45,488 nucleotides of DNA from assembly GCA_036759485.1 (NCBI GenBank), contig DAIOUO010000001.1, forward strand, positions 1 through 45,488, in the 5' to 3' direction. How positions within the stretch are numbered: the stretch's first letter is position 1; every line of letters begins with the position of its first letter. Under the pieces are notes generated by a model. It searched no databases and was not told where the DNA came from. It worked only from the letters and a program-made list of their open reading frames with translations. The stretch comes from Geminicoccaceae bacterium (GTDB lineage: Bacteria > Pseudomonadota > Alphaproteobacteria > Geminicoccales > Geminicoccaceae). This document shows, piece by piece, positions 1 through 16,748 of this stretch. The translations under genes were made by a program, and so were the position numbers.

Positions 1-1410
1 GCCCGATGCCGCCGCTTCGGCGTCGTGGGCTCGGGCGAGGATCGAAACCGCTCGGTGGTAAGGGAGGCCACTCGCCGGAACGACCTCGCCCGAGGCGAGG
101 ACGAGCGACGCGTAAGGCGCGAGGTCGGCCACGAGCTCGAGCTTGGCCATGAGGCAGGCATCGAAGATCACGAGGTCGAGCGGTGCTTCCTCCTCGAGCC
201 CGTCGCGTAGAGCGGCGAGCAGCTCGTCGATGTCGAGCGCGTCCGCGGAACCGTCGTCGGTCGCGATCCGCGTGCCTGCGCCGTGGCCCCACAGGAGGAG
301 AGCGCGGCGCCGTGCCGGAAAGGTCGAGCGACCCCAACGAAGGAGCTCGCGCAAGAGCGCCGGATCCCCCGTGTTGCGCGGCCCGCGCGGCTCGACCACG
401 AGGCGGGGGGATTCGCCGGACGGCTCCGAAGAGGTCGCCGGCAACACGGCGAATCGGCCGCAGAGAGCCGCGTCGCGCGAATCGAGCTCGCCCGCCACGT
501 GGAGCCGATCGAGTTCGGGCGCCGCCGAGAGCTCCGCGAGGTCGGCCCGCAGCTCGCCCGCCAGATCGTTGTCGGCGGCCGCTAGGGTCAGCACCGCCCA
601 GCGGCGCATCGGCTGCCGGCCCAGGCCCGAGAGGCCCCCGCCGACCGCCGCGAATGACCGCCCGTCCGTCGCCGCCGCGAGCCGCCGACGCATCTCGGCC
701 AGCAGACGGCGGAACGGCGCCGTTCGGCTCAGGACGAAGCGCCTCGGGGGCGGGCCGGGCTCGCCGTGCAGCCGGGCGCGCAGCCGCCGCAGCAGGCGCG
801 CGGCATCGGCCCGCTTGGCGTCGACCATCGAGCGCCGCGCCCACCGTACGACGGCGTCCGCCCGCCGTGGCCCGACCGTCTCGCACAACACGGCCTCGAA
901 TGCCGCGCGCGTGCGTTCCGGATAGAAGCGGGCGGCGAGGGCGCGCGCGGCCGCCTCCGCTTCGCCGGCGCCGATCAGCCCGAGCCGCTCCAGGCGCGCG
1001 AGTGTGGCCCGGAGGTTCACCATGGGCTCGCTCAACGCCGGCCAGCCCAGTTCGGCCGGACCGTGCAGGAGCGCCACCTCGTCGTCGGCATCGAGGAGGC
1101 CGTCGCGGTAGGCGGCGAAGATCGTCCCCACCCCCTCCATGCCGAAGGGATGCAGCTCGGCCGCCCGCAACGCCCCCATGCTGGCGGCGCCGAGCACCGG
1201 GATGCCCGACTCGAGTGCCGCGAGTATCTCCTTGTGCCAGACCGCCGGCTCGTGGCCGAACACACCGTCGACGAGCCCGATCAGTCGTGCTCCCTCGCCG
1301 ACCGCGCGCAGCACGTCTCCTTGGGCGGCCGGCGGCAGCACGCGGATGCCGGGCAGCTCCAGGCGATGAAGGCGCGGGAAGCTCGGTCCGACGAACAGCA
1401 CGGCGCTCAC
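1..1410 (-). CDS. TfuA-like domain fused to a clostripain-like (peptidase C11) domain; partial, the C-terminus lies beyond the left window edge
   Basis: This minus-strand frame is open from 1410 to position 1 (470 codons) and is not in the supplied ORF track because it has no stop inside the window. GTG at 1410..1408 overlaps the YcaO TGA at 1409..1407. My translation starts VSAVLFVGPSFPRLHRLELPGIRVLPPAAQGDVLRAVGEGARLIGLVDGVFGHEPAVWHKEILAALESGIPVLGAASMGALRAAELHPFGMEGVGTIFAAYRDGLLDADDEVALLHGP, which matches TfuA hallmark stretches as I recall them. From about aa 266 it reads RRWAVLTLAAADNDLAGELRADLAEL...RRALLLWGHGAG...APLDLVIFDACLMAKLELVADLAPYA. These match the C11 N-terminal motif and the His/Cys dyad motifs (His codon about 285..283, Cys codon about 156..154). 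Confidence 0.8.
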   Translation of the reverse strand, partial: MSAVLFVGPSFPRLHRLELPGIRVLPPAAQGDVLRAVGEGARLIGLVDGVFGHEPAVWHKEILAALESGIPVLGAASMGALRAAELHPFGMEGVGTIFAAYRDGLLDADDEVALLHGPAELGWPALSEPMVNLRATLARLERLGLIGAGEAEAAARALAARFYPERTRAAFEAVLCETVGPRRADAVVRWARRSMVDAKRADAARLLRRLRARLHGEPGPPPRRFVLSRTAPFRRLLAEMRRRLAAATDGRSFAAVGGGLSGLGRQPMRRWAVLTLAAADNDLAGELRADLAELSAAPELDRLHVAGELDSRDAALCGRFAVLPATSSEPSGESPRLVVEPRGPRNTGDPALLRELLRWGRSTFPARRRALLLWGHGAGTRIATDDGSADALDIDELLAALRDGLEEEAPLDLVIFDACLMAKLELVADLAPYASLVLASGEVVPASGLPYHRAVSILARAHDAEAAASG

Positions 1411-2612
1411 GGCCGGGCTCCGAGCGCGCGAGCCCTGGGCCCCGGGACCCAACCCTCGAGGTCGAGCCCGTCCTCGAGGCCGGGCAGGAGGAGCTTGACG
1501 ACCGGCACGCCGACGTCGGGACGAGAGAGATCGACCAGGACCGGGCCGGGGATTCCCCGCCGTCCGAGGCGGTCGAGAAGCCTGGCCAGCTGGTCGACGG
1601 CCGGCAGAGCCGGATCCCAGGCTGGTGCCGACAGAAGCCGCCCACCCGGCCGTCGCAGGAGGTTGCGATGGTGGGCGAGCCGAGCCGGGTCGATCGCGGC
1701 GTAGCGATCGCGACCGATGTCGTCGCGCGAGCCCGTGATCTGCGTGAGCCTCGCCTGGACGGCCTCGAGGAGGGCGGCCAGAAGAGCGGCCTCCGGATCG
1801 GCCCGGCAGGCGCTGCCGAACTCCCAGCCGCCCGGATCGTGTGCGCGCGGGCGGTCGGCCACGAGATGGCAGAGGCAGACCGGCACGCCGAGGTCGGAGG
1901 TGACGTCCCAAGCACCCACGAGCATCTCGGCGTCCCGCAGCCGAGCGAGGAGGTCGCGAAGGTCCGCCCGGCGGACGGTCGCGAGGTCGATTCGGGTCGA
2001 GGCCCGATCGAAGGGATCGCGCAGGCCCCAAAGCGTCACCGCGTCCCGCTCGACCAGCTCGAGGAGGGCGTGCAGGGCCGCTTCCGCCGGTGTGCGGCCA
2101 CTCGCGAGGCCGCTCGTCGTGAGCGTGAAGCAGCCGCGCCCCGCCGGCGCAGGGAGTGTCGTGTCGAGCTCGACGAGCTCGGCCGGCACCATGATCGGGC
2201 GACCGCTCGCGAGATCGCGACCCGCGACCCAGGGGATCGGCAGGTCCGGCCGCAGACGGCTGCCGCGCGGTGGGCTCAACGCCGAAAGATCGAGGAACCC
2301 GGGATCGCCCGCGACCCGCGCCGGAGCGGCACGGAGCTCGGCCAGCCCCGGGGTCTCGGCATGCCAGGTCTCGATGCTCTCCATGAGCGCACCGGCGCGG
2401 GCCTGCTCCCGGGTGAGACCTTTGCCTTGGCTCACCGAGAGAGCCCGCCCGTTGGGCCGGCAGCAGACCGCCACGGGCACGCCCAGATGGTCGAGGCCGG
2501 TGACGTCCGCGAGGCGAGTGATGCCGAAGAGACCGAGGCGCGGCCGCAGCCAGCGGACGAGATCCTCGGCCGAGCCCACCGGCAGCGCGGGCCCGTCGGG
2601 AAGGCCGAGCAA
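1407..2612 (-). CDS. YcaO-domain protein (TfuA-associated type, ATP-dependent peptide backbone-modifying enzyme family)
   Basis: 401-aa ORF containing GITRLADVTGLDHLGVPVAVCCRPNGRALSVSQGKGLTREQARAGALMESIETWHAE (a YcaO-type S-x-GKG ... E-x-x-E stretch) and a proline-rich C-terminal region (GVPVVKLLLPGLE). The stop overlaps the downstream TfuA-like start as GTGA. The start is uncertain: TTG at 2612 or GTG at 2579, and neither has a strong SD. Confidence 0.9.
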   Translation of the reverse strand: MLGLPDGPALPVGSAEDLVRWLRPRLGLFGITRLADVTGLDHLGVPVAVCCRPNGRALSVSQGKGLTREQARAGALMESIETWHAETPGLAELRAAPARVAGDPGFLDLSALSPPRGSRLRPDLPIPWVAGRDLASGRPIMVPAELVELDTTLPAPAGRGCFTLTTSGLASGRTPAEAALHALLELVERDAVTLWGLRDPFDRASTRIDLATVRRADLRDLLARLRDAEMLVGAWDVTSDLGVPVCLCHLVADRPRAHDPGGWEFGSACRADPEAALLAALLEAVQARLTQITGSRDDIGRDRYAAIDPARLAHHRNLLRRPGGRLLSAPAWDPALPAVDQLARLLDRLGRRGIPGPVLVDLSRPDVGVPVVKLLLPGLEDGLDLEGWVPGPRARALGARP

Positions 2613-2656
2613 GGGATGGAGCGGGCGCCCCGGTCCCGGCCGGGGCGCCCACGCGC

Positions 2657-3058
2657 TCAGGCGCCGTCCGGACCGGCGGCGAAGCGCTGCTTGCCGGCGG
2701 TGGGGCCGACCGGCTCGGGCGCGTCGAACAGGCCGGCGGCGAAGCGCTGCTTGCCGCCCGCCGGCGCCGTGGGTTCGACCGCCTCGAGGAGACCCGGGGC
2801 GAAACGCTGCTTGCCACCCGAGGGGCTCCCGGCGTCGGCCTCGACGACCATCAGCCGGTCGCTCAGGAGAGCGCTCTTGAGCCCGGCGAGCGCCGGGGCG
2901 TTGTCGAGTGCGGCGATCACGCCGTCACCGGTCGGGCTGCCGCGCTGCTGATCGTCGGGCAGCCGGTAGCGGTCGACGAGATCGGCCAGCGGGACGAAGA
3001 ACAGGCTGTCGTCGCGGGCGCGCAGGAGCACGCCCGGCTGGTTGGGGAGATCGTTCAT
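2657..3058 (-). CDS. Candidate RiPP precursor peptide, 133 aa, with an ~80-aa leader-like N-terminus and three tandem C-terminal repeats
   Basis: ATG at 3058 is preceded by GGAG (plus-strand ctcc at 3065-3068) with a 6-nt spacer. Third-codon-position G+C is very high by hand count, unlike the overlapping plus-strand shadow ORF. The C-terminus reads SGGKQRFAPGLLEAVEPTAPA/GGKQRFAAGLFDAPEPVGPT/AGKQRFAAGPDGA. The gene lies 44 nt upstream of the YcaO gene on the same strand. Confidence 0.7.
   Translation of the reverse strand: MNDLPNQPGVLLRARDDSLFFVPLADLVDRYRLPDDQQRGSPTGDGVIAALDNAPALAGLKSALLSDRLMVVEADAGSPSGGKQRFAPGLLEAVEPTAPAGGKQRFAAGLFDAPEPVGPTAGKQRFAAGPDGA
2660..2818 (-). repeat. Three in-frame tandem repeats with an exact 60-nt (20-aa) period inside the precursor ORF
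   Basis: The identical 21-mer ggcggcgaagcgctgcttgcc occurs at 2675-2695 and 2735-2755. A third copy, cggggcgaaacgctgcttgcc, lies at 2795-2815 and matches 18 of 21 positions. The spacing is exactly 60 nt. The conserved peptide core is GKQRFA[AP]G, and the inter-core segments are more diverged. Confidence 0.85.
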
Positions 3059-3131
3059 CGGGCGCTCCGGTTGGGGGAGCTGGACGCGTCGCGGCCTCGG
3101 CCGCGAAGGCCTTATGGCCTATTATAGGACA
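3059..3131 (-). promoter_or_regulatory. Intergenic region upstream of the precursor gene: a perfect TATAAT, two short GC hairpins and the precursor SD
   Basis: On the minus strand, TATAAT corresponds to plus-strand attata at 3121-3126, in a locally AT-rich patch. Inverted repeats are aggcc-ttat-ggcct (3107-3120) and cgcggcc-tc-ggccgcg (3090-3105). No good -35 lies at 17 nt; the TTGACT that overlaps the bpt stop is only 7 nt away. The hairpins could equally be a weak bpt terminator. Confidence 0.35.
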
Positions 3132-3893
3132 TTAGTCAAGATCCTTCCTCGGATCTCGGTCGGAGCCATCGACCTCGGACTCGTCCAATGGCCGCCACAC
3201 CCAGCCCTCGAGCGCCTCGAGCGGCCGGAAACGCCGCTTGTAGGCCATCTTGCGACAATCGGCGATCCAATAGCCCAGATAGACGTAGGGCAACCCGAGC
3301 TCGCGCGCGCGCTGGACGTGCCAGAGAATGAGCAAGGTTCCGAGCGAGCGGTCCGGCTCCTCCGGCTCGAAGAACTTGTAGACGCCCGAGAGACCGGAGG
3401 CGACATAGTCGGTGAGGCTCACCGCCATCAGCCGCCCGTCGGTTCGCCGCAGCTCGATCAGCCGGGTCGAGCGCCCGGTCTCCTCGACCATCTCGACGAA
3501 ATCGCGCCAGCCCATCTCGGCCATGCCACCGTCGCCGTGGCGCGCCTGGATGTAGCGGCGGAACAAGAGGAACTGCTCGTCGGTCGCCCGAGCCGGCCGC
3601 TCGCTCGGCCGGAGGTCGGCGTTCCTCTTGAGAATCTTGCGGAACGTTCGCCTCGGTACGAAGTCCGCCACCCTGATGCGCGTCGGTATACAGGCCCGGC
3701 AGTCGGGGCAAGCGGGCTTGTAGAGGAAGCGCTGGCTACGGCGGAAGCCGGCCGCGGTGAGCTGGTCGAGCAGCGTCTCCTCTTCCGCCGGGTCGAGGAC
3801 CGTGACGAGCCGGCGCTCGAGAAGCCCCGGTCGATAGGGACAGGGCGAGAGCTCGGTCGCATAGAACCGGCGGTTCGGGGTCGAGCCGTCCAA
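3132..3893 (-). CDS. bpt: Arginyl/leucyl-tRNA--protein transferase of the Bpt (bacterial Ate1-like) family
   Basis: The sequence RRFYATELSPCPYRPGLLERRLVTVL...GFRRSQRFLYKPACPDCRACIPTRIRV...LGTLLILWHVQRARELGLPYVYLGYWIADCRKMAYKRRF is typical of Bpt. The listed 353-aa ORF over-extends at the N-terminus. I place the start at the in-frame TTG at 3893 (codon 101 of the listed ORF), preceded by GAGGA. The start is uncertain. Confidence 0.8.
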   Translation of the reverse strand: MDGSTPNRRFYATELSPCPYRPGLLERRLVTVLDPAEEETLLDQLTAAGFRRSQRFLYKPACPDCRACIPTRIRVADFVPRRTFRKILKRNADLRPSERPARATDEQFLLFRRYIQARHGDGGMAEMGWRDFVEMVEETGRSTRLIELRRTDGRLMAVSLTDYVASGLSGVYKFFEPEEPDRSLGTLLILWHVQRARELGLPYVYLGYWIADCRKMAYKRRFRPLEALEGWVWRPLDESEVDGSDRDPRKDLD

Positions 3894-3951
3894 GCGGTCC
3901 TCGTCACGCTGCGGCGACGATGGAGCCGGATGCGGGATCGCCGGCCGCTCG

Positions 3952-16671: not shown

Positions 16672-16748
16672 GCGCCCGTAGCTCAGCCGGATAGAGCATC
16701 CGCCTTCTAAGCGGAGGGTCGCAGGTTCGAGCCCTGCCGGGCGCACCA
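16672..16748 (+). tRNA. tRNA-Arg, anticodon TCT
   Basis: The cloverleaf was folded by hand. The acceptor stem is gcgcccg/cgggcgc. The anticodon stem is tccgc/gcgga with loop cttctaa (anticodon at 16706-16708). The T arm is gcagg-ttcgagc-cctgc. The discriminator is A, and CCA is encoded. Confidence 0.95.

What the first reader, a model, noticed from the sequence alone, without database searches (positions are those of the whole stretch)
2660..2818. Exact 60-nt-phase triple repeat encoding GKQRFA[AP]G: a multi-core precursor architecture
The precursor C-terminus is GGKQRFAPGLLEAVEPTAPA / GGKQRFAAGLFDAPEPVGPT / AGKQRFAAGPDGA.

At the DNA level an identical 21-mer recurs at 2675-2695 and 2735-2755. 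An 18/21 copy lies at 2795-2815, always exactly 60 nt apart. The repeat is therefore maintained in frame.

The octapeptide core is conserved while the spacers drift (LLEAVEPTAPA versus LFDAPEPVGPT). That pattern is expected if selection acts on a repeated core or recognition motif, as in cyanobactin-type, thiovarsolin-type and other multi-core RiPP precursors. The last copy ends the protein 5 residues after the motif.
Basis: seen in the sequence. Interest (0 to 1): 0.8.

Follow-up and report, generated by a model that had tools for sequence, protein, structure and literature searches.

The report
Repeat-bearing precursor of a YcaO-TfuA-clostripain pathway
A small gene with three in-frame copies of a short motif (P-x-G-G-K-Q-R-F-A) is most likely the substrate peptide of an undescribed sulfur-inserting (YcaO/TfuA) pathway whose arginine/lysine-specific protease is fused to TfuA, which makes it a credible new family of modified peptides, although no product has been seen.

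Summary
ORF 2657-3058 (-) encodes 133 aa. Its last 53 residues are three 60-nt in-phase units with an exact 21-mer at 2675-2695 and 2735-2755 and an 18/21 copy at 2795-2815.

The ORF is a real, conserved gene: GC3 is 0.91 and 17 homologues were found. The motif P-x-G-G-K-[QDE]-[RK]-F-A is kept at 1-3 copies across subfamilies that are otherwise divergent, usually exactly 20 residues apart. dN/dS is 0.03 in GGKQRF, 0.29 in the spacers and about 1 in the tail.

In every locus examined the gene sits beside a YcaO, a TfuA and a clostripain-family (C11) peptidase. This holds in three gene arrangements and in unrelated neighbourhoods. In this window TfuA and C11 are one protein.

AlphaFold2 gives a folded 60-residue N-terminal domain of no known family, followed by a disordered repeat tail.

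Best reading: a multi-site RiPP-type precursor. Each motif would be thioamidated by YcaO/TfuA and cut after the basic residue by C11. The product is unknown.

I found no paper linking YcaO or TfuA with C11. I rate it a new variant of the YcaO-TfuA thioamide RiPP kind. A cultured carrier exists: Geminicoccus harenae CPCC 101083.

The parts
2657..3058 (-). Small ORF (133 aa), the putative precursor or substrate protein. Start is ATG 3058-3056 and stop is TGA 2659-2657.
   Evidence: - ORF list.
- GC by codon position is 0.80/0.52/0.91.
- 17 homologues at 48-94% identity.
- No Pfam or NCBIfam family matches.
2861..3034 (-). Conserved N-terminal domain (residues 9-66), predicted fold beta-beta-alpha-alpha-beta. 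It is leader-like. Family signature: G-[VIL]-L-[IL]-R-x2-D-x-T-L-[FY]-F-[VI]-P ... [YF]-[RK]-L-P-x3-Q-x-G ... L-[DN] ... [KR]-N-A.
   Evidence: - AlphaFold2 on a 29-sequence alignment gives pLDDT 87-90 for residues 10-50.
- Alignments A1-A4.
- The profile search recovers the domain in about 20 clusters, some with two copies per protein.
- No PDB fold match at E <= 0.001.
2660..2824 (-). Repeat array of three 20-residue units. The P-x-G-G-K-Q-R-F-A motifs lie at 2798-2824 (aa 79-87), 2738-2764 (aa 99-107) and 2678-2704 (aa 119-127). The unconstrained tail GPDGA follows.
   Evidence: - Repeat calls.
- Motif frequency table over 86 units from 33 proteins.
- Spacing table.
- dN/dS by region.
- Predicted disordered, pLDDT about 50.
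3065..3068 (-). Shine-Dalgarno-like GGAG, 6 nt before the ATG.
   Evidence: Read directly from the sequence. GGAG sits at the same place in most Geminicoccaceae-type orthologues; L018 has GGAAG and the more distant loci lack it.
3111..3140 (-). Conserved upstream element: CTTGAC (3140-3135), then the palindrome CCTAT-A-ATAGG (3128-3118), then an A/T-rich hexamer CATAAG (3116-3111) 17 nt after the TTGAC hexamer. It looks like a promoter with an operator in its spacer.
   Evidence: - The upstream regions of 10 orthologues share CTTG[AC].. and a TCCT..AGGA-type inverted repeat, although the upstream gene's stop codon falls in different positions.
- The strict sigma-70 scan found nothing, so the function is inferred only.
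2621..2652 (-). G+C-rich stem-loop (13 bp in the window) between the precursor stop codon and the YcaO start, with no U-tract.
   Evidence: - Fold energy -38.6 kcal/mol, z-score only -1.8 in this G+C-rich context.
- Present in 8 of 10 orthologous loci. On the 11 aligned pairs, 90% of cells are paired, 3 pairs show changes on both sides, and 1 of 500 shuffles reaches the covariation score.
1407..2612 (-). YcaO-domain enzyme (401 aa).
   Evidence: - Pfam PF02624, 2.3e-72, full length.
- The best NCBIfam match is TIGR03266, the McrA-glycine thioamidation YcaO, at 182 bits. That is below its equivalog cut-off of 365.
- The best PDB relative is MJ1094 (6pe3/6peu), 5e-21.
- 39-45% identical to the YcaOs of the distant module variants.
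1..1410 (-). TfuA fused to a clostripain-family (C11) peptidase. Only the first 470 of about 648 residues are here, because the window starts inside the gene. The GTG start at 1410-1408 overlaps the YcaO stop codon (GTGA).
   Evidence: - Translation.
- Pfam on the window fragment: TfuA 3.9e-44 and Peptidase_C11 2.7e-20.
- The full-length orthologue is 647 aa.
- NCBIfam ThioGly_TfuA_rel, 2.5e-51. PDB 6xp8 TfuA, 8.5e-33. PDB 6n9j clostripain-related protein, 1.4e-5.
- WGHG His, FDAC Cys, the Asp two residues before the Cys, and ADN are invariant in 16 sequences.

Best explanation
The ORF at 2657-3058 (-) is the genetically encoded substrate, a RiPP-type precursor, of a three-part maturation module: YcaO (1407-2612), TfuA, and a clostripain-family C11 cysteine peptidase. 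In this window TfuA and C11 are one polypeptide (1-1410).

Proposed mechanism:
1. The folded N-terminal domain of about 60 residues acts as a large leader that docks the precursor on the enzymes (inferred).
2. The disordered C-terminal tail presents three copies of P-x-G-G-K-Q-R-F-A, 20 residues apart.
3. At each copy, YcaO activates a backbone amide with ATP and TfuA supplies sulfide, giving a thioamide. This is inferred from the established role of YcaO-TfuA pairs. The nearly invariant Gly before Lys is my preferred site, because both enzymes are closest to the pair that makes thioglycine in McrA.
4. The C11 domain keeps the His/Cys dyad and the S1 aspartate that specify Arg/Lys at P1. It would cut after the conserved basic residue (R85, R105, R125, and possibly K).
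5. One precursor would therefore yield two or three thioamidated peptides.

Two product options remain open. One is short motif-derived peptides ending in ...GGKQR. The other is the 20-residue units F-A-x-G-...-G-G-K-Q-R.

Shown here: the gene, the repeats, their selective constraint, the co-inheritance of the four components, and intact catalytic motifs. Inferred: every chemical step and the product.
For: 1. The gene is real and constrained.
- GC3 is 0.91.
- 17 homologues were found.
- dN/dS is 0.027 for GGKQRF, 0.15 for P.GGKQRFA, 0.29 for spacers, 0.36 for the N-domain and about 1.0 for the tail.

2. The motif is conserved far beyond this lineage, while spacers and tails change completely.
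- Variants are GGKDKF, and GGKEKF, GKQKF/Y, AFRPRV, GAFKPK and SGTG.R.KT.
- All share a basic-x-basic pair followed by F/Y/T/V.
- Copy number is 1-3, and spacing is exactly 20 aa in four subfamilies and 19 in one.

3. The components are co-inherited.
- Small ORF, YcaO and TfuA::C11 fusion occur in Geminicoccaceae loci beside parE/bpt.
- The same trio occurs in a different neighbourhood (Crp, cyclase, FMN oxidoreductase) in L007, L008 and L020.
- Small ORF, YcaO, TfuA and C11 occur as separate genes in L009.
- The small ORF is convergent with C11-TfuA-YcaO in L023.
- The small ORF is also followed by a YcaO in L021, where the contig ends before any TfuA or C11 gene could be seen.
- By matching contig lengths, P0021/P0007, P0025/P0001, P0029/P0014 and P0031/P0009 appear to lie on the same contigs.

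4. The enzymes look competent.
- YcaO is full length.
- TfuA matches at 4e-44.
- The C11 His, Cys, S1 Asp and ADN Asn are invariant. They correspond to His133, Cys179, Asp177 and Asn50 of PmC11, which cleaves after basic residues (PMC4850288).

5. Azoline chemistry is unlikely. The precursor has no Cys, and its tail Ser/Thr are not conserved. YcaO with a TfuA partner is the thioamidation combination (PMC6511847, PMC8153245, PMC13174530).

6. The tail is predicted disordered and the N-domain folded. This is the usual leader/core division.

7. Operon features fit.
- The YcaO stop and TfuA start overlap.
- A conserved stem-loop follows the precursor gene directly.

8. There is a precedent. The thiovarsolin precursor VarA has 0-5 imperfect repeats, each giving a thioamidated A-P-R peptide.
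Against: - No product, thioamide or cleavage has been observed. Everything rests on comparative genomics and homology.
- No exporter, immunity gene or sulfur-carrier gene belongs to the conserved module.
- In Geminicoccaceae the module sits in a stable housekeeping neighbourhood. This fits a physiological protein-modification role as well as it fits a secreted natural product.
- The N-domain is more strongly conserved and more structured than most leader peptides.
- The YcaO and TfuA scores are below the NCBIfam equivalog cut-offs, so the site and the chemistry cannot be transferred from McrA.
- The family is rare: about 20 clusters at 50% identity among 1.84 billion representatives.
- One homologue, P0144, lies on a contig with no YcaO within 8 kb upstream.
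- The dN/dS values come from a simple pairwise Nei-Gojobori count on 7 related sequences.
Confidence: 0.68

Rival explanations
1. Cyanobactin-like logic. The repeated P-x-G-G-K-Q-R-F-A elements are only recognition and cleavage sequences, and the real products are the 20-residue stretches between consecutive R|F sites (FAPGLLEAVEPTAPAGGKQR and FAAGLFDAPEPVGPTAGKQR). These would be released, and perhaps joined head to tail, by the clan-CD C11 domain. This is a sub-variant of the precursor reading and differs only in what the product is.
For: - Spacing is exactly 20 residues in four subfamilies whose spacer sequences are unrelated, and 19 in a fifth.
- Spacers are under purifying selection (dN/dS 0.29) and keep G, L, E and P positions.
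- F-A after the basic residue is conserved even in the last copy, while the rest of the tail is free (dN/dS about 1). That is what a P1'-P2' requirement would produce.
Against: - Single-motif members (AFRPRVV subfamily, P0154 and P0162-P0165) have no second site to delimit a unit.
- In P0149 the motifs are 11 residues apart.
- The highest conservation lies in the motif, not the spacers.
- No evidence for transpeptidation by C11 enzymes was found or tested here.
Confidence: 0.2
2. The small protein is not a natural-product precursor. It is a functional protein, or an adaptor, regulator or pseudosubstrate, whose tail is thioamidated and trimmed in the cell. This would resemble YcaO acting on McrA or on ribosomal protein uL16.
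For: - The N-domain is folded and strongly conserved.
- The conserved module has no exporter.
- The location is stable and vertically inherited in Geminicoccaceae.
- Regulator genes (Crp with a cyclase/TPR protein, or a BTAD/TPR protein) flank other variants.
- YcaOs that modify proteins are known (PMC13063428).
Against: - The repeats lie in a disordered tail.
- Copy number varies from 1 to 3, including a clean one-unit deletion in P0013.
- A dedicated endopeptidase is always present.
- In the two-domain proteins each N-domain carries its own motif, like concatenated leader-core cassettes.
Confidence: 0.1
3. The N-terminal 82 residues ending in -S-G-G form a ThiS/MoaD-like sulfur-carrier protein. 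Its C-terminal Gly-Gly would be exposed by the C11 protease and thiocarboxylated to feed TfuA, so the thioamidation target would lie elsewhere.
For: - TfuA is reported to hydrolyse thiocarboxylated ThiS (discussion in PMC13063428 and PMC8153245).
- The domain is ThiS-sized and is followed by Gly-Gly.
Against: - The AlphaFold2 model is beta-beta-alpha-alpha-beta, and the Gly-Gly lies 15 residues into the disordered tail.
- Foldseek against the PDB gives no hit at E <= 0.001 and no ThiS, MoaD or ubiquitin fold among the top 50.
- There are no Pfam or NCBIfam ThiS hits.
- C11 enzymes cleave after Arg/Lys, not after Gly.
- Gly-Gly is absent from several subfamilies (AFRPRV, SGTG.R.K).
- Repeating the motif would serve no purpose in this scheme.
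Confidence: 0.02
4. The repeat is a neutral replication-slippage or duplication product in a spurious or unimportant ORF of a G+C-rich genome.
For: - High-GC DNA produces many long spurious ORFs; several overlap this region on the + strand.
- Copy-number changes do occur (P0013).
Against: - GC3 is 0.91 in this frame.
- Homologues exist down to 25-48% identity with the same motif.
- dN/dS in the motif is 0.03, with synonymous changes present.
- Spacers are orthologous by position.
- The ORF always co-occurs with the enzymes.
Confidence: 0.01

Closest known systems
Thiovarsolins (var cluster: VarA, VarY YcaO, VarT TfuA; Streptomyces varsoviensis; PMC6511847)
   Same: - A YcaO-TfuA pair sits next to a precursor whose C-terminal part is a series of imperfect repeats.
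- Copy number varies between species (0-5 there, 1-3 here).
- Each repeat there gives a short thioamidated peptide ending in Arg (A-P-R).
- One variant of the present family (L009) also has an ATP-grasp ligase gene next to the module, as var does.
   Different: - The precursor has a different motif (GGKQRF, not APR). Homology to VarA could not be tested here, because no VarA sequence was available.
- The present family has a folded 60-residue N-domain.
- var has no dedicated protease, whereas here a C11 peptidase is always present and is fused to TfuA.
- No heme-oxygenase-like, amidinotransferase or MFS genes are present.
- The hosts are Alphaproteobacteria (Geminicoccaceae), not Actinobacteria.
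McrA thioglycine formation by archaeal YcaO-TfuA (MJ1094 / TIGR03266; TfuA 6xp8 / NF033432)
   Same: These are the closest sequence relatives of both enzymes. The chemistry is presumed to be the same: ATP-dependent backbone thioamidation with TfuA-delivered sulfide.
   Different: - Scores are well below the equivalog cut-offs (182 vs 365 bits; 174 vs 235 bits).
- The substrate here is a small dedicated protein with repeated sites, not methyl-coenzyme M reductase.
- A protease is part of the module.
Cyanobactin precursors (PatE type) and other multi-core RiPP precursors
   Same: Several cassettes lie on one precursor, with conserved repeated elements at the protease sites. A YcaO-family enzyme and a dedicated protease are in the cluster.
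   Different: - The module has no subtilisin-like PatA/PatG protease genes; its protease is C11.
- The YcaO domain fills almost the whole 401-aa protein, leaving no room for a fused E1-like domain.
- The precursor has no Cys, and its tail Ser/Thr are not conserved, so azoline formation is not expected.
- Here the repeated element, not the intervening sequence, is the most conserved part.
Thioamitides (thioviridamide, thiostreptamide) and the std homocitrulline pathway
   Same: YcaO-TfuA thioamidation acts as the gatekeeping first step on a ribosomal precursor, and a protease is encoded in the cluster.
   Different: - Those precursors have a single core.
- The proteases are C1A (TsaK) or S8/S53 fused to a carbamoyltransferase (StdF), not C11.
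- Those clusters carry many further tailoring enzymes that are absent here.
Clostripain / PmC11 (MEROPS family C11, clan CD)
   Same: The catalytic His and Cys, the S1 Asp two residues before the Cys, and the ADN Asn are all conserved. Basic P1 specificity is therefore expected, which matches the K-x-R/K of the motif.
   Different: - This enzyme appears cytoplasmic and is fused to TfuA.
- No RiPP role for a C11 peptidase was found in the literature searched.
- Known C11 enzymes are mostly secreted proteases.
Long-leader precursor families (NHLP and Nif11 types)
   Same: A large, conserved N-terminal domain is followed by a short, variable core region.
   Different: There is no sequence match to any NCBIfam or Pfam model, including those families. 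The predicted fold has no PDB match.

Membership tests
YcaO-TfuA thioamide RiPP clusters (general kind) | A YcaO-domain protein is encoded next to the candidate precursor. | tested here: met
   PF02624, 2.3e-72, full-length match. The gene starts 44 nt after the precursor stop codon.
YcaO-TfuA thioamide RiPP clusters (general kind) | A TfuA protein is encoded next to the YcaO. | tested here: met
   PF07812, 3.9e-44 on window 1-1410 (-). Its start codon overlaps the YcaO stop codon. It matches PDB 6xp8 at 8.5e-33.
YcaO-TfuA thioamide RiPP clusters (general kind) | A small precursor gene co-occurs with the enzymes across genomes. | tested here: met
   The small ORF is present in all loci inspected, in three gene arrangements and at least three neighbourhoods.
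YcaO-TfuA thioamide RiPP clusters (general kind) | A backbone thioamide is present in the mature product. | not testable with these tools
   This needs MS (+15.977 Da per site) or UV absorbance near 270 nm on expressed material.
Thiovarsolin family | A VarA-type precursor with A-P-R/G-P-R repeat cores, plus VarO (heme-oxygenase-like), VarL (ATP-grasp) and VarS (amidinotransferase). | tested here: not met
   There is no APR or GPR in the tail. The genes flanking the module in the window's lineage are bpt and a TPP enzyme. Only the distant variant L009 has an ATP-grasp gene. The family definition is taken from PMC6511847.
Cyanobactins | PatA/PatG subtilisin-like proteases, and cores with Cys/Ser/Thr that are heterocyclised by a YcaO with a fused E1-like domain. 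| tested here: not met
   The protease is C11, not S8. The YcaO is 401 aa and consists of the YcaO domain only. The precursor has no Cys and no conserved Ser/Thr in the repeats.
Peptidase family C11 (clostripain) | A His/Cys catalytic dyad with the S1 Asp two residues before the Cys. | tested here: met
   W-G-H-G and F-D-A-C are invariant in 16 sequences. Both are present in the window fragment (LLLWGHGAG, VIFDACLMA). They align to 6n9j. Residue roles are from PMC4850288.
Peptidase family C11 (clostripain) | Cleavage after Arg/Lys, demonstrated on the substrate. | not testable with these tools
   This is inferred from the conserved S1 residues only.
ThiS/MoaD sulfur-carrier proteins | A beta-grasp fold ending directly in C-terminal Gly-Gly. 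| tested here: not met
   The AF2 topology is beta-beta-alpha-alpha-beta, with Gly-Gly in the disordered tail. There is no ThiS, MoaD or ubiquitin hit in Foldseek/PDB, and no Pfam or NCBIfam hit.
NHLP / Nif11 leader families | A match to the curated leader-domain models. | tested here: not met
   There are 0 NCBIfam and 0 Pfam families at E <= 1 for the window protein, and 0 NCBIfam families at E <= 0.01 for three distant members.
McrA-glycine thioamidation YcaO (TIGR03266) and TfuA (NF033432) equivalogs | A score above the curated equivalog cut-off. | tested here: not met
   182.1 bits against a cut-off of 365, and 174.1 bits against 235.2. These are the closest relatives, but the window's proteins are not members.

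The most novel reading that the evidence does not exclude
The module defines a new class of thioamidated ribosomal peptides, with three unusual features:
- A clan-CD clostripain-type protease is physically fused to the sulfur-delivery protein TfuA.
- It excises fixed-length (20-residue) units from a multi-cassette precursor that carries a folded leader domain.
- Like the clan-CD legumains that make plant cyclic peptides, it may join their ends into thioamide-containing macrocycles.

The module's stable place in Geminicoccaceae chromosomes would then point to a physiological role, such as metal binding or signalling, rather than an antibiotic one.
Probability: 0.12. Interest if true: 0.85.

Novelty: new variant of a known kind. 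Interest (0 to 1): 0.58.

Why it matters
Only a handful of classes of YcaO-TfuA peptide products have been characterised: thioviridamide-like, thiovarsolins, thioamidated thiopeptides, chimeric lanthipeptides and the 2026 std pathway (PMC13174530).

This locus would add several things:
- A precursor family with a folded leader domain of unknown fold.
- A short cationic motif repeated at a fixed pitch.
- A protease type, C11, that I could not find linked to YcaO or TfuA in the literature searched, and which is fused to TfuA.

The fusion predicts that sulfur insertion and cleavage are physically coupled, which is directly testable. The K-x-R/K motif together with the intact S1 pocket gives a specific cleavage prediction.

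The system is compact (three genes, about 3.6 kb). It occurs in thermophilic hot-spring lineages, which often give well-behaved proteins, and in one cultured strain, Geminicoccus harenae CPCC 101083. Reconstitution is therefore realistic.

If the product is instead an intracellular modified protein, the locus would extend the short list of protein substrates of YcaO enzymes (McrA, uL16).

Tried and rejected
- **ThiS-like sulfur carrier.** Tested with AlphaFold2 and Foldseek against the PDB. There was no beta-grasp and no hit at E <= 0.001, so it was rejected.
- **Curated family for the small protein.** Pfam and NCBIfam gave nothing for the window protein, and NCBIfam gave nothing for three distant members.
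- **Tandem Repeats Finder.** It did not score the 60-nt array. The repeat finder did.
- **Widening the family with an N-domain profile.** The word-indexed search gave only 8 hits, 4 of them new single-motif members. The earlier exhaustive profile search had given 26 hits, several of them spurious long repeat proteins (P0150, P0151, P0155, P0157, P0160, P0161).
- **Genome scan with the diverse alignment.** The close alignment found 9 loci.
- **Viral contigs.** No relative was found.
- **Phage origin for the odd P0144 contig.** PHROGs matched only a PAPS-reductase-like fragment, so there is no support.
- **bpt (N-end-rule aminoacyl transferase) as part of the pathway.** It lies just upstream, but it is absent from the module's other neighbourhoods, so it is a neighbour only.
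- **Strict sigma-70 and intrinsic-terminator scans of 2500-3300.** Nothing was found.
- **Literature.** No paper combines TfuA or YcaO with clostripain or C11, or with Geminicoccus. The uL16 and daptide YcaO papers describe unrelated systems.
Full report
**1. The observation**

The region was read on both strands.
- A 133-aa ORF lies at 2657..3058 on the minus strand. GGAG sits 6 nt before its ATG.
- Its last 53 residues are GGKQRFAPGLLEAVEPTAPA / GGKQRFAAGLFDAPEPVGPT / AGKQRFAAGPDGA.
- The repeat finder gives three in-register 60-nt copies (2671-2850), 72% identical.
- The 21-mer is exact at 2675-2695 and 2735-2755 and 18/21 at 2795-2815. No other match exists in 45.5 kb, against 0.01 expected by chance.
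- The description is therefore correct, apart from the tail length: 4 residues follow GKQRFAAG, not 5.
- The frame is coding. GC by codon position is 0.80/0.52/0.91. The long overlapping ORFs on the + strand are the usual antisense artefacts of 70% G+C DNA.

**2. Surroundings**

On the minus strand, downstream of the ORF:
- First comes a 44-nt spacer holding a strong stem-loop.
- Next comes a 401-aa YcaO (PF02624, 2.3e-72).
- Overlapping the YcaO stop codon by 4 nt is a gene that runs off the window start. Its 470 visible residues contain TfuA (3.9e-44) and Peptidase_C11, the clostripain family (2.7e-20).
- Full-length orthologues of this fusion are about 647 aa.

Upstream lie a bpt/ATE-type aminoacyl-tRNA-protein transferase and parE.

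**3. Is the small ORF conserved, and is the motif?**

- A search of 5.8 billion proteins found 17 homologues at 48-94% identity, none of them named.
- All carry G-G-K-Q-R-F (G-G-K-D-K-F in the most distant one), in two or three copies. They also share a very conserved N-terminal 70 residues.
- P0013 is a three-copy-type protein that lacks exactly one 20-residue unit.
- An exhaustive profile search of 1.84 billion representatives added further subfamilies:
  - 3 x GGKEKF;
  - 2 x GK[QE]K[FY];
  - AFRPRV, GAFKPK and SGTG.R.KT types;
  - single-motif proteins;
  - proteins of about 255 aa with two N-domains, each followed by its own motif.
- Over 86 units from 33 distinct proteins, the consensus is P(-4)-x-G-G-K-[Q/D/E]-[R/K]-F-A. 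Part of that signal is imposed by the pattern I used to collect the units.
- The pitch is exactly 20 residues in four subfamilies with unrelated spacers, 19 in the GGKDKF subfamily and 11 in one AFRPRV protein.

**4. Selection**

I ran a pairwise Nei-Gojobori count on seven ungapped three-copy orthologues.

| Region | dN/dS |
|---|---|
| GGKQRF | 0.027 |
| P.GGKQRFA | 0.15 |
| Spacers | 0.29 |
| N-domain | 0.36 |
| Six-residue tail | about 1.0 |

- Synonymous differences occur inside the cores (GGT/GGC/GGG, AAG/AAA, CGT/CGC, TTC/TTT). Protein-level selection, not recent duplication, therefore keeps them alike.
- Spacers are 76-77% identical between orthologues but 64% identical between the two spacers of one gene. 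The triplication therefore predates these species, and there is no sign of concerted evolution.
- The count is crude, because the pairs are not independent. The tenfold contrast is nonetheless large.

**5. Co-inheritance with the enzymes**

- In Geminicoccaceae genomes and metagenomic contigs the order is parE, bpt, small ORF, YcaO, TfuA::C11, TPP enzyme.
- TfuA::C11 fusions are rare: 22 clusters (P0018-P0039) among 1183 TfuA-containing hits.
- The distant fusions (36-40% identity) lie in another neighbourhood, with Crp and a cyclase/TPR gene upstream and an FMN oxidoreductase and ETF genes downstream. They are again preceded by a small ORF of this family and a YcaO.
- The cultured Geminicoccus harenae CPCC 101083 has this version.
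- In L009 a two-domain small protein is followed by YcaO, TfuA, C11 (as separate genes) and an ATP-grasp ligase.
- In L023 the small ORF is convergent with C11-TfuA-YcaO and sits next to a BTAD/TPR regulator.
- The YcaOs of these variants are 39-45% identical to the window's.
- The conserved unit is therefore the small protein plus YcaO, TfuA and C11. bpt and parE are only neighbours.

**6. The proteins**

- YcaO and TfuA are closest to the archaeal pair that makes thioglycine in McrA, but they score below the equivalog thresholds:
  - TIGR03266, 182 bits against a cut-off of 365;
  - MJ1094, 5e-21;
  - NF033432, 174 bits against 235;
  - 6xp8, 8.5e-33.
- In the C11 domain, W-G-H-G, F-D-A-C and A-D-N are invariant in 16 fused and stand-alone sequences. 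They align with a solved clostripain-related protein.
- In PmC11 the corresponding residues are the His133/Cys179 dyad, the S1 Asp177 and Asn50. That enzyme takes basic residues at P1 (PMC4850288).
- The one feature shared by every motif variant in the family is a basic-x-basic pair (K-Q-R, K-D-K, K-E-K, R-P-R, K-P-K, R-S-K). This is what such a pocket would recognise.
- AlphaFold2 on a 29-sequence alignment predicts a beta-beta-alpha-alpha-beta domain for residues 9-66 (pLDDT 87-90 over residues 10-50). The repeats are predicted disordered, with pLDDT about 50.
- Foldseek finds no PDB match at E <= 0.001.

**7. Mechanism proposed**

- The small protein is a precursor with a large folded leader and a tail carrying three processing sites.
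- YcaO/TfuA install a thioamide at or beside each motif. Azoline chemistry is unlikely, because the precursor has no Cys and its tail Ser/Thr are not conserved.
- YcaO with TfuA is the known thioamidation pair.
- The C11 domain then cuts after the basic residue.
- My preferred site is the nearly invariant Gly before Lys, by analogy with thioglycine. I give it about one chance in three.
- Two product options remain.
  - Short motif-derived peptides. This is the thiovarsolin logic, in which each VarA repeat gives thioamidated A-P-R. It is favoured by the single-motif members and by conservation peaking in the motif.
  - The 20-residue inter-site units. This is favoured by the fixed pitch, by the constrained spacers, and by F-A being kept after the last site while the tail beyond it is free.
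- All chemical steps are inferred.

**8. Regulation-related features (secondary)**

- A G+C-rich stem-loop directly after the precursor stop codon is present in 8 of 10 orthologous loci. On the 11 aligned pairs, 90% of cells are paired and three pairs change on both sides.
- It has no U-tract. A role in setting the precursor-to-enzyme transcript ratio is plausible but untested.
- Upstream, CTTGAC and an inverted repeat of TCCT..AGGA type (CCTAT-A-ATAGG in the window, 3128-3118) are conserved. This holds even though the neighbouring gene's stop codon falls at different positions.
- The GGKDKF subfamily instead has a GTGA-N6-TCAC box, with adjacent Crp and cyclase genes.

**9. Rivals**

- A ThiS-like carrier was tested and rejected.
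- A neutral slippage product is excluded by sections 3-5.
- An intracellular modified protein rather than a released peptide cannot be excluded. The module has no exporter, sits in a stable chromosomal position and has a well-folded N-domain. I give it about 0.1.

**10. Comparison and novelty**

- The kind is known: a YcaO-TfuA thioamide pathway with a repeat-bearing precursor. Thiovarsolins are the closest analogue.
- Membership of the thiovarsolin, cyanobactin, thioamitide and NHLP/Nif11 families fails on defining features (see the membership table).
- New here:
  - the precursor family and its leader fold;
  - the cationic motif at a fixed pitch;
  - a C11 protease that is always present and is often fused to TfuA.
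- Full-text searches found no paper linking YcaO or TfuA with clostripain or C11, or with Geminicoccus.
- A May 2026 preprint's list of characterised YcaO-TfuA RiPP classes contains nothing like it.
- The library does not cover most subscription journals, so prior description cannot be ruled out.

**11. Verdict**

- It is a credible, compact, experimentally tractable candidate for a new thioamide peptide family.
- Interest is moderate to good rather than exceptional. The chemistry class is expected, and many uncharacterised RiPP-like clusters exist.

Noticed in passing
window 2621-2652 (-): A 13-bp G+C-rich stem-loop lies between the precursor stop codon and the YcaO start, with no U-tract. 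It is conserved in 8 of 10 orthologous loci, with compensatory changes. The 8-nt 'tandem repeat' that TRF reported at 2644-2665 overlaps its 5' arm.
   Followed up: yes
window 3111-3140 (-): CTTGAC and the A/T-rich palindrome CCTAT-A-ATAGG are conserved upstream of the precursor gene in Geminicoccaceae orthologues. This is unusual in 70% G+C DNA and may be a promoter with an operator. The binding factor is unknown.
   Followed up: partly
L007:6394-6533, L008:416-555, L020:5822-5961: The GGKDKF subfamily has a conserved GTGA-N6-TCAC (CRP/FNR-like) box upstream of the small ORF. In L007 a Crp-family regulator gene and a cyclase/TPR gene lie immediately upstream, and L020 has a TPR gene there. 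This suggests control by a cyclic nucleotide.
   Followed up: partly
L011:8001-8405: P0144 is a homologue with 2 x GGKQRFA but a diverged N-domain with an insertion. It lies on a 9.4-kb contig of about 20 small ORFs with no Pfam hits and no YcaO in the 8 kb upstream. PHROGs matched only a PAPS-reductase-like fragment. It may be an orphan copy or part of a mobile element.
   Followed up: partly
P0142, P0145-P0148 (e.g. L009:82-849): Some family members are about 255 aa and have two tandem N-domains, each followed by its own motif (SGTG.R.KT...). The whole leader-plus-core cassette is duplicated, rather than the core alone.
   Followed up: partly
L009:4285-5313: A D-Ala-D-Ala-ligase-type ATP-grasp gene follows C11 in the variant where TfuA and C11 are separate genes. 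It recalls the ATP-grasp ligase of the thiovarsolin and pheganomycin clusters.
   Followed up: no
L012:6001-6402: In the closest genomic relative (92% identity), the third motif reads GKQCF: CGC has become TGC, giving Cys in place of the conserved Arg. This is the only substitution of that basic residue seen in 86 units.
   Followed up: no
window 3132-3941 (-), about 268 aa by comparison with orthologues: A bpt/ATE-type aminoacyl-tRNA-protein transferase gene (PF04376/PF04377) lies directly upstream of the precursor gene. It is syntenic in Geminicoccaceae but absent from the module's other neighbourhoods, so it is probably unrelated to the pathway.
   Followed up: yes
L001:16240-20402, L004:15404-18575: In orthologous loci, a znuA/znuC/znuB zinc-uptake cluster with a Fur-family regulator lies 2-3 genes downstream of TfuA::C11. 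A Fur-family gene is also downstream in L007 and L008. This part lies outside the window. Any link between thioamide peptides and metals is speculative.
   Followed up: no
window 16672-16748 (+): tRNA-Arg (anticodon TCT) is the only Rfam or ARAGORN hit in the window.
   Followed up: no
window 183-2951 (+) and 1717-2880 (+): Very long ORFs (922 and 387 aa) lie antisense to YcaO and the precursor. They are Arg/Pro/Ala-rich and typical of high-G+C antisense frames, so I treated them as spurious.
   Followed up: partly
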